A DNA stretch of 64,000 bases from Eledone cirrhosa (Eukaryota). The notes under the pieces are model-generated. The model was not told the origin of the DNA. It worked only from the letters and a program-made list of their open reading frames with translations, and did not search any database. Position numbers and translations under genes: made by a program. The DNA is taken from NCBI GenBank assembly GCA_964016885.1, contig OZ024741.1:105524001-105588000 (forward strand), in the 5' to 3' direction. Below, piece after piece: positions 45,825 through 51,084 of this stretch; the stretch's first letter is position 1, and each line of letters starts with the position of its first letter.

Positions 45825-46976
45825 ATCATCATCATCATCATCGTTTAACGTCCATCTTCCACGCTTGCATGGGTTTGGACGGGAGTTTTCCCACTTGAGG
45901 CAAGAGTGGTTGTCTTGCTCGCATAGGACTGTCTGGCGGGTTTTCTACGGCTGGATGCCCTTCCTAACACCAACCACGTTTACAGTTGTGACTGGGAGGT
46001 TTTTACCGTGTTACCTACACGGCCATATTACAGCGTGGACTGTGTGTTTTTGTCGTGACACCTACACGACCTCATTTGTTTCGGACTGGATGTTGTGGTA
46101 CCAACATAACTTTACATTGAAAGGGGTGGTGTGGATGGGGTGGGGGTAGTGGGACGGCGGTGTATTTTTGTTAGAGGTGCCTACTGACTGTAGTAGGTTT
46201 CACTTTGTACTTAGGTAAGGCGGGTCTTCTGTATTACTGTGTAGCGCCAAAGATCTCGGTCCAGTGACATTGTCTTGGAGAGGTGTAAGTGTGTGAGGTC
46301 AGAATTTATCAAGTCGTCCCAGGTTTTTCTAGGTCTGCCTATTCCGTGACTACCGTCTATTTTTATTGCCCTGCACTTTTTTATACAGCTGTCGTCTTTC
46401 ATGCGCATCACATGACCATACCAACGTAGTCTTCTCTCGAGTAAACAACATCTGATCCCTCTTATTTCTAATTTTTCCCTTAGTTTGTTTATGCTTTGCC
46501 GTTCACGTATATTACTATTACACATCCAACGGAGCATGCAAGCTTCGTTCCTCTCCAGTCTGCATATATCCTCTGCACACAATGCCCAGGTCTCATTGCC
46601 ATGTAACATTGCTGTTCGTATGCAGGCATCATACAGCCTGCCTTTCATTTTTAGAGAGAACTCTTTAGCAGCTAATAGTGGTATAAGCTCTCTGAACTTT
46701 TTCCATCCAGTTCTGATTCTAGCTACTGTACTTTCAGAGCACCCTCCACCACTGCTGATTTTGTCCCCCAAGTAACAGAAGGTGTCCACTATTTCTCTAG
46801 AACCATCTGTGCAATGGAATGAGCTAGTATTCTGTGGGCACTTGCTGCTACTTATTGCACCAGAGCACCGGCCACATATAAAATCTATATTCTTAGTTAG
46901 CTTACCTGTGATCCCACTACATCTTTTATGCACCCATACTTTGCATTTGGGACATAAAATGGGGTTTCTGCCTACT
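45825..46976 (-). mobile_element. 5'-truncated RTE: open ORF 46976-46211, ~385-bp 3' UTR, (GAT)n tail
   Basis: [41 protein letters not shown]; 5' junction in (TA)n. Confidence 0.93.
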
Positions 46977-48450
46977 ATATATATATATACATATATATAT
47001 ATACATATATACATACATATATATATATACATATATACATACATATATATATATACATATATACATATATATATATATATATATATACACATATATATAT
47101 ATACATATATATATATACATATATACATACATATATATATATACATATATACATATATATATATACATATATATATATACATATATACATATATATATAT
47201 ACATATATATATATACATATATACATATATATATATATACATATATACATATATATATATACATATATACATATATATATATATATACATATATATATAT
47301 ATACATATATATATATACATATATATACATATACATATATATACATATACATACATATATATACATATACATATATATACATATATATACATATATATAC
47401 ATATATATACATATACATATATATACATATATATATACATATATATACATATATATACATATACATATATATACATATATACATATATATATATATATAT
47501 ATACATATATATATATATACATATATATATATATATATACATATATATATATATATATACATATATATATATATATATACATATATATACATATATATAC
47601 ATATATATATACATATATATATACATATATATATACATATATATACATATATATATACATATATATACATATATATACATATATATATACATATATATAT
47701 ACATATATATATACATATATATACATATATATACACATATATATACATATATATACATATATATACATATATATACATACATATATATACATATATATAT
47801 ACATATATATACATATATATACATATATATATACATATATATATATACATATATATACATATATATACATATATATATACATATATATATACATATATAT
47901 ACATATATATATACATATATATACATATATATACATATATATACATATATATACATATATATATACATATATATACATATATATATACATATATATACAT
48001 ATATATACATATATATATATATACATATATATATATATACATATATATACATATATATATATACATATATATACATATATATACATATATATACATATAT
48101 ATACATATATATACATACATATATATATACATATATATATATATATATATACATATATATATACATATATATATATATATATATATATACATATATATAT
48201 ATATATATATACATATATATATATATATATATACATATATATATATATATATATACATATATATACATATATATATACATATATATACATATATATATAC
48301 ATATATATACATATATATATATATATATATATACATATATATACATATATATATACATATATATACATATATATATATATATATATATACATATATATAC
48401 ATATATATATATATATATATATATATATATATACATATATATATATATAT
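46977..48450. repeat. ~1.5-kb (TA)n/(TACA) microsatellite
   Basis: Direct reading. Confidence 0.97.
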
Positions 48451-51084
48451 ATCATCATCATCATCATCATCATTTTACGTCCGCTTTTCCCTGCTTGCAA
48501 GGGTGGGACGGGTCTTATTCAGCACAGCATCTCTCCACTCGTCACGGTCCCTCGTCATCTCCACCGTGAGCTTCAATGATCTGAGGTCTGTTCTCACCAC
48601 CTCCGCCCATGTTTTTCGTGGTCTACCTCTACCACGTCTTCCTTCAACTGGCATTTCCTGGCACTTCTTCACCCATCGGTCATCCTCCATGCGCATCACA
48701 TGTCCATACCACCTCAGTCTCCTCTCCCGTACACTACATTCTATCCCTCTCAGACACAGTTTCTCTCTCAACACATTTATGCTGGGTCGTTCACGCACAT
48801 TTACACTGCACATCCAACGGAGCATGCTTGCCTCATTTCTCTCCAGCCGTCGCATATCTTCTGCGGTAGCTGCCCATGTCTCACTACCATGCAGCATCGC
48901 GCTCCTCACACAGGCATCATACAACCGGCCTTTCGTACGCAGGGAGAAACCCTTCTTCGTCAACAGAGGAAGCAGCTCCCTAAACTTCTTCCAACCCGTC
49001 CTTATTCTAGATACTATGGCCTCGGAACACCCTCCTCCCATGCTAATCTGATCTCCTAGGTACCGGAAGCTATCCACCACTTCTATAGCGCCCTCTCGCA
49101 TTTGAAAAATGTGTCTATCAGTGCGACTTCTACTGTCTAATTTCCCTGTACATCTACTGCATACATATTTCTCCCTACCTGTTAGTTTGCCTGCTATCCC
49201 GCTACATCTCTTGTGTACCCAGGACCTACATTGTGTGCATTTTATAGAATTTATGCCAGTTCCTTTTCTGCATATCGAACATGGCCATTTCCCTGACGGA
49301 ATCAGGGTTTTGTCCTCTTTTCTACTCATCAACACTTTTGTCTTAGCTAGATTTACTCTCAGTCCTCTTGCTTCCAACTGCTGTTTCCATAGCCGGAATT
49401 TATTCTCTAGCTCCTCTACTGATTCTGCCATAAGAGCCAGATCGTCAGCATAGAGAAGTTCCCATGGACAGCCAGTCTTAAACTCCTCTGTTATGGCTTG
49501 GAGGACTATAATGAACAAGAGCGGGCTGAGGACCGAACCCTGATGTACTCCTACTTGTATCTGGAATTCCTCACTAAACTCCATTCCTACCCTGACTTTA
49601 CTGAGAGTACCTCTGTACAAAGTTTGCACTGTCCTTACAAGCCATTCCTCAACACCCAGCTTCCTTAGGGACCACCAGATGACAGATCGGGGTACCCTAT
49701 CAAAGGCCTTCTCTAGGTCAACAAAGGCTAAGTATAGTGGCTTATTCTTCTCTAAGAACCTCTCTTGCATTTGTCTCACCAAGAAGAGGGCGTCTGTTGT
49801 ACTCTTCCCAGGCACAAAACCAAACTGCATCTCATCTAGTTTGACCCTTTCTCTAATTAGTTGTGCTAGAATCCTTTCTGCCACTTTCATAACCTGATCT
49901 ATCAGTTTTATACCCCTATAATTGCTCCTCTCCAAAGCATCCCCTTTACCTTTGTAGCAATTTATGAGAATACTGCTGCACCAGTCTTTGGGTATGACAC
50001 CACCATATATAGCCTGATTGATTATGCGTGCAACCAGTTTAGTGCCTACGTCCCCTGATGCCTTCAGCATCTCAGCAACTATTCCCGATGGTCCGGCCGC
50101 CTTACCATTTTTCATTTCCCTAATCGCCTCTTGGACCCTATATTCGTCAATCTCAATAGCTGGTCCCTCTGTCGGATCTACCAAGGGTAATTTCTCTCTC
50201 TCCCATTCGTTCTCCACATTCATCAGTCTCTCATAATGACATTTCCAGGCCTCCTTTTTCTGGTCATTCGTGACACTAAGTACACCGGCATCATCCCGGA
50301 CACATTTATCACCAACAACATCCTGATTTGCATTGACACACTGCCGTCGCAGAACATTGGCAAACCTCCTACTCTCTGCCTCCCTGCGTGCTAAGTACAC
50401 CTGACGTCTAGCTTCTCTCTTAGTGGCTGTATATTCTTCCCTACTCCCACCCTTATTCCAAGCCTTCCATGCTAGTCTTTTGTCTCTAATAGCCTTATCT
50501 ACACTGCTGTTCCACCACCAGGTCACTCTCTGTCTGGTTGGAGCTCTGCTCCAGCCACAGGTTTCATCAGTAGCCTTCAGCAAGTTGTCACGTAAGAACT
50601 TCCAGTTATTATCTATGTCATACGTCTCTAAATCGTCTTCTTTTTCGTCATATACATCTTGAAGGGCTTTCCTAAATTTGAATTTTAGTGAAAGGTCTTT
50701 TAGCTTCCAGACCTTTCTTCTCCACACCTTCCTATATGTCTCATTCCATCTCTTGCTTACTGAGATATCACTAACAACTAACCTATGCTGTGGGGTACAT
50801 TCTTCCCCAGGGTATGCCTTGGTATTAGACACTATCTGCCTGTCCCGCTGCCTAACTAGCAGGAAGTCAATCTGGCTTATGTGCTCACCAGATTTGTAGG
50901 TTATTAGGTGATTGGCAGGTTTCTGGAAGTTTGTGTTGCAAATAGTCAATGTACTTGCATCACAAAATTCAAGAAGTCTCACTCCTTCTTCATTTCTTGA
51001 ACCGTAACCGTGCCCACCATGTACCCCAGTGTAACCATCCTGAGCTGTCCAACATGACCATTGAAGTCTCCTGCTAGCATAACG
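48451..51084 (-). mobile_element. Young 5'-truncated RTE LINE: partial APE, RT with embedded PHD-type finger, stop 48475, (GAT)n tail
   Basis: [48 protein letters not shown]4HC3 finger, FRYLG; open for ~850 codons with one frameshift near 51045. Confidence 0.96.

What the first reader, a model, noticed from the sequence alone, without database searches (positions are those of the whole stretch)
45825..51084. RTE LINEs with (GAT)n tails appear to target (TA)n microsatellites
Both junctions of the young 48451-51084 copy and of the 60-bp 34862 copy are in TA runs. So are ends at 16412, 17071, 25688-25724, 45726 and 46976. Two subfamilies (no 3' UTR versus ~385-bp UTR) share the terminus GGACGTWAAA..(GAT)n. 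Microsatellite targeting is established for R4/Dong, R1 and Tx1 clades, whereas RTEs are usually considered non-specific. GAT/AT microhomology priming or endonuclease preference could explain it.
Basis: partly seen in the sequence, partly recalled or inferred. Interest (0 to 1): 0.7.

Follow-up and report, generated by a model that had tools for sequence, protein, structure and literature searches.

The report
TA-seeking RTE-like LINE and partner SINE
A young, very abundant jumping gene sits against TA repeats far more often than chance or than an unrelated jumping gene in the same genome, likely because its cutting step prefers a short alternating TA motif rather than because it needs a microsatellite, and about a third of its copies land elsewhere.

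Summary
The TA association is real and genome-wide, but leaky. 6,245 of 20,082 young 3' ends (31%) and 2,583 of 8,365 ends of the 3'-UTR subfamily (31%) run into ATATAYA. Background is 1.3% of positions and 12% of AT sites; an unrelated (ATT)n-tailed LINE/SINE end gives 459 of 5,742 (8%). In 100 copies with both ends, 67 touch a TA run (background 7%). Locus-specific array variants recur on both sides, so the arrays likely pre-existed. However, the 3' bias fades about 4 bases past the tail's AT, so a short T^ATAT-like motif in a genome about 5% TA repeat explains most of it. Clear target duplications are rare, and flanks often do not join up (inferred target deletions). The element is a 4.7-kb single-ORF APE+RT+PHD LINE, RTE-like by anatomy; its clade was not tested by a tree. 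The '60-bp copy' is a tRNA-SINE end, not the LINE. Closest known: the RTE 'Tn-TA' insertion signature with tail microhomology. No empty allele was recovered. This scan has already noted the same TA preference elsewhere in this genome.

The parts
48451..51084 (-). Young LINE copy, 5'-truncated inside the endonuclease (begins about residue 142 of 1022); RT + PHD; no 3' UTR; (GAT)7 tail at 48451-48471; in-frame 36-nt deletion near 50345
   Evidence: (6 mismatches and 37 gap nt over 2,612 nt against full-length L065)
46976..48450 (.). TA/TACA array shared by the 3' junction of the young copy and the 5' junction of the UTR-subfamily copy
51085..52978 (.). TA/TACA array at the 5' junction of the young copy
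45825..46975 (-). Older subfamily copy: ORF end 46975-46211 (69% nt identity to the young family), 366-nt 3' UTR, (GAT)6 tail followed by ATAAAG (no TA run)
34862..34922 (-). 3' end of the partner tRNA SINE (SINE-specific CAGTT plus the 40 nt shared with the LINE, plus tail), inside TA runs on both sides
45442..45726 (+). UTR-type 3' end; tail runs into TA 45725-45739
15551..16411 (+). Older RT + UTR copy; tail meets the tail of an opposite-strand end (16421-16560) across an 11-nt TA run
17040..17072 (+). Diverged (GAT)n end followed by TA 17071-17082 (start approximate)
25689..25723 (+). 35-nt terminus plus tail; TA run 25670-25688 at the 5' side, only ATAT at the 3' side
40839..41505 (+). 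Older RT + UTR copy; tail not directly in TA (TA run starts at 41517)
26041..26145 (+). UTR-type end whose tail is followed by non-TA sequence (counter-example)

Best explanation
These are copies of a recently amplified RTE-like LINE, its older subfamilies and its partner SINE, which sit against TA repeats several times more often than a control retroelement, likely because the APE endonuclease nicks short alternating-AT DNA at a T^A step and the GAU tail then likely pairs with the freed AT end to prime reverse transcription. Shown: enrichment at both junctions, family specificity, and a 3' bias confined to about 4 nt past the tail's AT. Inferred: the nick position (top strand T|ATAT), priming by 2-nt microhomology, and that the arrays pre-existed. 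About half of all ATAT 4-mers in this genome lie in TA runs, so a short motif reads out as microsatellite preference. The 5' end is likely joined by a second, loosely coupled event that also favours TA. This would leave few target duplications and frequent target deletions, some of them 36-140 nt long and ending at a neighbouring array.
For: Genome-wide counts: tail followed by AT 10,581, ATATAYA 6,245 and (AT)5 4,203 of 20,082 ends; UTR subfamily 2,583 of 8,365; control (ATT)n end 459 of 5,742. Background from 40 x 10 kb: ATATATAYA at 1.3% of positions, 12.4% (9.2-15.7) of AT sites and 46.8% (40-52) of ATAT sites. Stepwise test on 135 copies: continuation of alternation exceeds background at step 1 (102/135 vs 0.44), step 2 (85/102 vs 0.60) and step 3 (71/85 vs 0.74), not after; purine/pyrimidine alternation exceeds it to step 4. 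(AT)5 given ATAT is 39.7% versus 35.7% (29.6-40.9). TA at the 5' junction 47/100, and 28/46 in copies at least 99% identical; either side 67/100 versus 7%. Locus-specific array variants are shared across the insertion in 28 loci: 0.59 versus 0.14, reached by 0 of 20,000 permutations. Intact copies of the flanking repeats carry a TA array at the matching place for L044, L108 and L126. A T|A cut and tail-matched first base are published for RTEs (PMC6007223, PMC13295347).
Against: The short-motif model does not cover everything. A 5' TA run is present in 26 of 60 copies whose 3' side has none, versus 6.6% (AT), 13.9% (AT|A) and 23.9% (AT|AT) expected. ATATAYA given ATAT is 59%, above the background interval of 40-52%. 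33 of 135 tails are not followed by A, so cleavage or priming is often elsewhere. No true empty allele was seen. Deletions are inferred from paralogous repeats and could be post-insertional; 3 of the 7 non-contiguous cases are pieces of other RTE subfamilies and may be later or chimeric insertions. The sample is mostly from the first 150 Mb of contig C1 and conditioned on an intact 3' end. The control family is older (median 90.5% pairwise) and mixes LINE and SINE ends.
Confidence: 0.62

Rival explanations
1. True array targeting: the ORF protein (endonuclease, or the PHD finger via chromatin) binds or recognises the structure of (TA)n tracts and cuts in or near them, including just outside their edges.
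For: Excess of 5'-only TA (26/60 vs 6.6-24%); TA cover stays 0.16-0.20 at 200-300 nt versus 0.05; junctions 36-140 nt from an array with the gap lost; RTE proteins are proposed to bind a tract upstream of the cut (PMC6007223).
Against: No length dependence at the 3' junction beyond about 4 nt; 33 of 100 copies touch no TA run; copies also sit in an 18-bp satellite and in other SINEs.
Confidence: 0.2
2. Insertion at pre-existing breaks: TA arrays are fragile, and the element uses host-made breaks there with little endonuclease choice, giving deletions and no duplications.
For: Few clear duplications outside arrays (about 5 of 100 by eye); non-contiguous flanks in 7 of 8 junctions inside older repeats (judged by eye). 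Fragility of TA tracts is recalled, not tested.
Against: A LINE/SINE end of another clade with an AT-compatible tail shows only 8%; the endonuclease catalytic residues are intact; the tail is followed by A in 102 of 135 copies.
Confidence: 0.1
3. The TA runs are born or grown after insertion (slippage from the GAT tail or a short duplication), or TA-flanked copies are merely retained by selection.
For: RTE tails are known to seed microsatellites (PMC2887409); the genome is about 5% TA runs; arrays can expand after insertion.
Against: 5' junctions, which have no tail, are as TA-rich as 3' junctions and most so in the youngest copies (28/46); interrupted variants match on both sides; the 3' share does not rise with age (25/64, 15/41, 12/30); the control family is not enriched over AT sites.
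Confidence: 0.08

Closest known systems
RTE-clade LINEs and SINEs with the 'Tn-TA' signature (plant RTEs and Au SINEs, Bov-B, Sauria SINE; PMC6007223 parts 1, 3, 4 of 6 read; PMC13295347 outline and Results read)
   Same: Single APE+RT ORF, microsatellite tail, first target base matching the tail, inferred T|A cut; glutamine before the catalytic histidine, which PMC6007223 reports as a plant-RTE trait (88 of 90 homologs).
   Different: The motif is alternating ATAT and lands in TA arrays; clear 7-15-bp duplications are rare here, versus about 80% of young Bov-B copies; an upstream T stretch was not shown; a PHD finger follows the RT; the 5' UTR is 1.6 kb.
Microsatellite-specific LINEs: Waldo (ACAY), Mino (AC), Kibi (TC), Koshi (TTC), Dong (TAA) (listed in PMC3812793, passages seen)
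   Same: Copies interrupt pre-existing microsatellites.
   Different: Those are described as sequence-specific; here a third of copies touch no TA run and no length dependence is seen. That list has no TA-targeting LINE and no RTE.
RTE-derived SINEs with a tRNA head, an RTE 5'-UTR piece and an RTE 3' end (Ceph-SINEs and others; PMC5786205, passages seen)
   Same: The ~322-bp partner SINE has a tRNA head, a 53-nt piece 83% like the LINE's 5' UTR and the LINE's last 40 nt.
   Different: Identity with a named SINE family was not tested.
Octopus RTE-2_OV (PMC9115989, passages seen)
   Same: [quoted passage not shown]
   Different: 1,109 aa with an RNase-free status not checked by me and UTRs of about 600 nt, versus 1,022 aa here; no target analysis in the passages seen; sequence not compared.

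Membership tests
RTE clade LINE | Single ORF with APE endonuclease followed by RT | tested here: met
   One ORF of 1,022 aa in full-length L065; N-terminus matches L1 endonuclease structures (E 1e-6); RVT_1; E39, Y111, D147, N149, D214, H241 conserved in 86-90 of 90 homologs.
RTE clade LINE | No C-terminal CCHC knuckle and no RNase H | tested here: met
   Pfam finds only RVT_1 and PHD on the window copy; no RNase H family among 120 listed homologs; knuckle pattern in 0 of 200 proteins, fragments included. That these features mark RTE is recalled.
RTE clade LINE | Short 3' UTR ending in a tandem-repeat tail | tested here: met
   Stop 2 nt before (GAT)n, with 2-14 units in 135 copies; 366-nt UTR in the older subfamily.
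RTE clade LINE | RT phylogeny groups with named RTE elements | not testable with these tools
   No named RTE reference was returned: homologs are unnamed and PDB gave only L1 and R2. Filed as RTE-like by anatomy.
RTE 'Tn-TA' insertion signature | Cut at T|A, with the first target base matching the tail | tested here: inconclusive
   Tail AT followed by A in 102/135 and AT in 85/135, consistent with T|ATAT; the base before the cut cannot be read without empty sites.
RTE 'Tn-TA' insertion signature | Target duplications of 7-15 bp | tested here: not met
   17 of 100 have an informative match of 7 nt or more (null mean 0.9), most inside variant arrays; about 5 outside arrays. Duplications inside pure TA cannot be seen.
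RTE 'Tn-TA' insertion signature | T stretch about 10 nt upstream of the cut | not tested
   Too few clear duplications to anchor the position.
Microsatellite-specific LINEs (Dong, Kibi, Koshi, Mino, Waldo) | Nearly all copies inside the target repeat | tested here: not met
   TA on both sides in 21 of 100, on neither side in 33 of 100; 31% of 3' ends genome-wide.
Microsatellite-specific LINEs (Dong, Kibi, Koshi, Mino, Waldo) | Endonuclease cleaves the repeat specifically | not testable with these tools
   Needs a nicking assay.
tRNA SINE with RTE-derived body and tail | tRNA head, LINE 5'-UTR piece, LINE 3' end | tested here: met
   Rfam tRNA hit at 29.4 bits (gathering 29) at the head of L003; 83% over 53 nt to the LINE 5' UTR and 100% over the last 40 nt.

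The most novel reading that the evidence does not exclude
An RTE lineage has evolved real (TA)n-tract targeting: its protein is recruited to TA arrays, cuts in or beside them, and usually deletes rather than duplicates target DNA. It would be the first TA-array-seeking LINE and a steady engine of deletions and retroelement pile-ups at microsatellites in this genome.
Probability: 0.25. Interest if true: 0.65.

Novelty: new variant of a known kind. Interest (0 to 1): 0.42.

Why it matters
RTEs are described as non-specific (PMC2887409) or as having a weak Tn-TA bias (PMC6007223). Here tens of thousands of ends show how such a short bias becomes a de facto microsatellite preference in a TA-rich genome, a plausible intermediate between random and repeat-specific LINEs. 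Intact 1,022-aa ORFs in near-identical copies make the endonuclease directly testable. The lack of duplications and the signs of target deletion would make this family a source of structural variation and of unstable microsatellite markers.

Tried and rejected
DNA search of the genome with the 3' 300 nt found nothing because common words are skipped; exact patterns were used instead. Empty alleles: laying contigs of 4 runs on 34300-35500 gave no joint, because the tool skipped 34830-34985 as repeat. Laying 4 runs on the 3' flank of L108 failed because that flank is itself a repeat; its other copies are often preceded by TA-like letters, which is weak and not counted. A search for paralogous empty sites in 1.1 Mb of fetched DNA gave one clean case, L168, a non-TA insertion with a few-base duplication or microhomology. 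The 5' junction count for the control family (1/29) is not used, because most 5' ends were not correctly located. No HDV-like or other ribozyme reached Rfam's threshold in the window or L065. Rejected: pure AT microhomology (predicts about 12%, control 8%, observed 31%); tail-born TA (5' junctions are equally enriched); strict targeting (33/100 outside TA). Rows dropped: 172 ends were reduced to 150 by identical 3' flanks; 14 SINE-type ends and the window copy were set aside, leaving 135; 35 of these lacked a readable 5' flank, leaving 100.

Full report
Observation. The young copy at 48451-51084 lies between two long TA/TACA arrays. The older copy at 45825-46975 starts in the same array that the young copy's tail runs into, but its own tail is followed by ATAAAG. 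The window also holds (GAT)n ends that are not in TA (26145, 18192, 57707, ~26815; 41505 is 12 nt away). The fragment at 34862 carries CAGTT upstream of the shared 40 nt, which marks the SINE and not the LINE.

What the element is. Full-length copies (L065, L068) are 4.7 kb, with a 1.6-kb 5' UTR and one ORF of 1,022 aa. The ORF has an APE endonuclease (L1 endonuclease structures, E 1e-6), an RT and a PHD finger. Catalytic residues are intact and conserved in 86-90 of 90 aligned homologs; the residue before the catalytic histidine is Q in 88 of 90 (90 of the 120 listed homologs had the anchor motif). PMC6007223 reports that substitution for plant RTEs; my mapping to its residue 229 is by motif order. 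The window copy is 5'-truncated inside the endonuclease, has a 36-nt in-frame deletion, and differs from L065 at 6 sites in 2,612 nt. The genome holds 2,624 exact 56-nt LINE ends, 8,410 exact 40-nt ends including a partner SINE, and 20,082 exact 20-nt ends. The SINE is about 322 bp, with a tRNA head, a piece like the LINE's 5' UTR and the LINE's last 40 nt; 7 of 11 untruncated SINE copies begin in a TA run (by eye). No named RTE reference was available, so the clade rests on anatomy.

Is the TA link more than chance? Of 20,082 ends, the tail's last AT is followed by AT in 10,581 (a slight overcount, since a few ends match twice), by ATATAYA in 6,245 and by (AT)5 in 4,203. The UTR subfamily gives 2,583 of 8,365. 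In 400 kb of evenly spaced background, ATATATAYA starts at 1.3% of positions and 12.4% of AT sites. A CR1-like LINE/SINE end with an (ATT)n tail, which could pair with AT equally well, gives 459 of 5,742, or 8%. So neither genome composition nor tail microhomology explains 31%. The control is older and mixed, but the older UTR subfamily still gives 31%. In 135 distinct LINE copies the 3' flank starts with a TA run of 8 nt or more in 52; in the 100 with a readable 5' flank, the 5' side does so in 47, both sides in 21 and either side in 67, versus 4.7%, 2.3% and 7.1% in background. Without the 20 hand-picked long copies the figures are 43/115, 35/80 and 51/80 for either side.

Motif or array? 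A base-by-base test shows the excess lies in the first three to four bases after the tail's AT and then equals background. Genome-wide, (AT)5 given ATAT is 39.7% versus 35.7% (29.6-40.9) in background. About 47% of ATAT sites here lie in longer runs, so a short motif produces most of the apparent targeting. Two results go beyond this. ATATAYA given ATAT is 59% versus 40-52%. And a 5' TA run is present in 26 of 60 copies whose 3' side has none, versus 6.6-24% depending on the conditioning.

Did the arrays pre-exist? In 28 loci with TA-rich flanks on both sides, interrupted variants are shared across the insertion (0.59 versus 0.14; own partner ranks first in 12; 0 of 20,000 permutations). The 3' share does not grow with age, and the 5' share is highest in the youngest copies. 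Several junctions lie where other repeat families normally meet a TA tract. Direct empty alleles were not obtained.

Target structure. Clear duplications are rare: 17 of 100 informative matches (null mean 0.9), only about 5 outside arrays. Where a junction lies inside an older repeat, the repeat continues on the other side in 1 of 8 cases (judged by eye from 16 rows; rows at repeat ends or within the element itself were set aside). For L044, L108 and L126, intact copies of the flanking repeat reach a TA array about 55, 36 and 140 nt from the junction, which suggests small target deletions. For L170, L047, L077 and L037 no array lies within 170 nt. Three non-contiguous cases are pieces of other RTE subfamilies and may be later or chimeric insertions, and deletions could postdate insertion.

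Mechanism. Most likely (inferred), the endonuclease nicks the bottom strand at a TpA step in ATAT-like DNA. The freed ...AT-3' end pairs with AU of the GAU tail and primes reverse transcription, which gives GAT followed by ATAT. The 5' end is joined separately, often in TA and with local loss of target. True tract recognition, use of fragile-site breaks and post-insertion birth of TA are the rivals, in that order.

Comparison with what is known. Microsatellite-specific LINEs listed in PMC3812793 (passages) target ACAY, AC, TC, TTC and TAA; none is an RTE or targets TA, and this family fails their near-exclusive occupancy. PMC2887409 (passages) calls RTE sites non-specific. PMC6007223 (parts 1, 3, 4 of 6) and PMC13295347 (outline and Results) describe the Tn-TA signature and tail-target pairing, which is the closest match. 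PMC9115989, PMC13282606 and PMC5786205 were seen as passages. Ten searches (listings only) showed no paper on a TA-microsatellite-preferring RTE. Subscription papers and Repbase entries are not covered, and no supplements were read.

Earlier notes of this scan on other pieces of the same genome reached the same reading. They are unreviewed and not independent support; the counts, the control family, the stepwise test and the deletion evidence here are my own.

Verdict. A real, strong but leaky TA preference of an RTE-like LINE/SINE system; a new variant of a known insertion bias rather than a new targeting system. Interest 0.42.

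Noticed in passing
window 52979-53324 and 53960-54079: Two short non-TA islands inside the large TA arrays are built of inverted copies of one sequence (head-to-head, foldback-like); the same end sequence flanks L145 and L022. Possibly a MITE or a fold-back rearrangement.
   Followed up: no
window 9889-10082 and copies at 13180, 17193, 21478, 28899, 36992, 40443, 42868, 59290, 63263: A ~190-bp repeat family with about ten copies in the window, up to 99% alike; homologous to the tRNA-like SINE into which L168 inserted.
   Followed up: no
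window 660-3474: CR1-like LINE (APE + RT, one frameshift near 2437-2534) with an (ATT)n tail followed by a short TA run; its family end served as the control.
   Followed up: partly
window 45845-46210; L065 element positions 1524-1579: The 3' UTR of the older subfamily contains a 57-nt piece 81% like the young LINE's 5' UTR and like the SINE body, so that UTR may be a captured SINE-like end.
   Followed up: partly
window 16397-16432; G000:C1:140865-140931 and 5584999-5585092: Tail-to-tail pairs of (GAT)n ends on opposite strands separated by a few TA units; they recur among fetched loci.
   Followed up: no
L025-L030, L087: LINE and SINE copies inside an 18-bp satellite; L025-L028 share one flank and look like segmental copies.
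   Followed up: no
window 32960-33370 and 23139-23676: A mariner-like transposase fragment (Pfam Transposase_1), and a broken integrase-like fragment of a probable LTR retrotransposon (no Pfam hit; resemblance recalled).
   Followed up: no
window 56514-56800: A GC-richer segment begins exactly at the end of the 54080-56513 TA array and may be the 5' end of another retroelement; no Rfam hit.
   Followed up: no
P0064: A 47%-identical homolog is annotated as a bacterial MAG protein on a 4.6-kb contig, probably an animal LINE binned into a metagenome genome.
   Followed up: no
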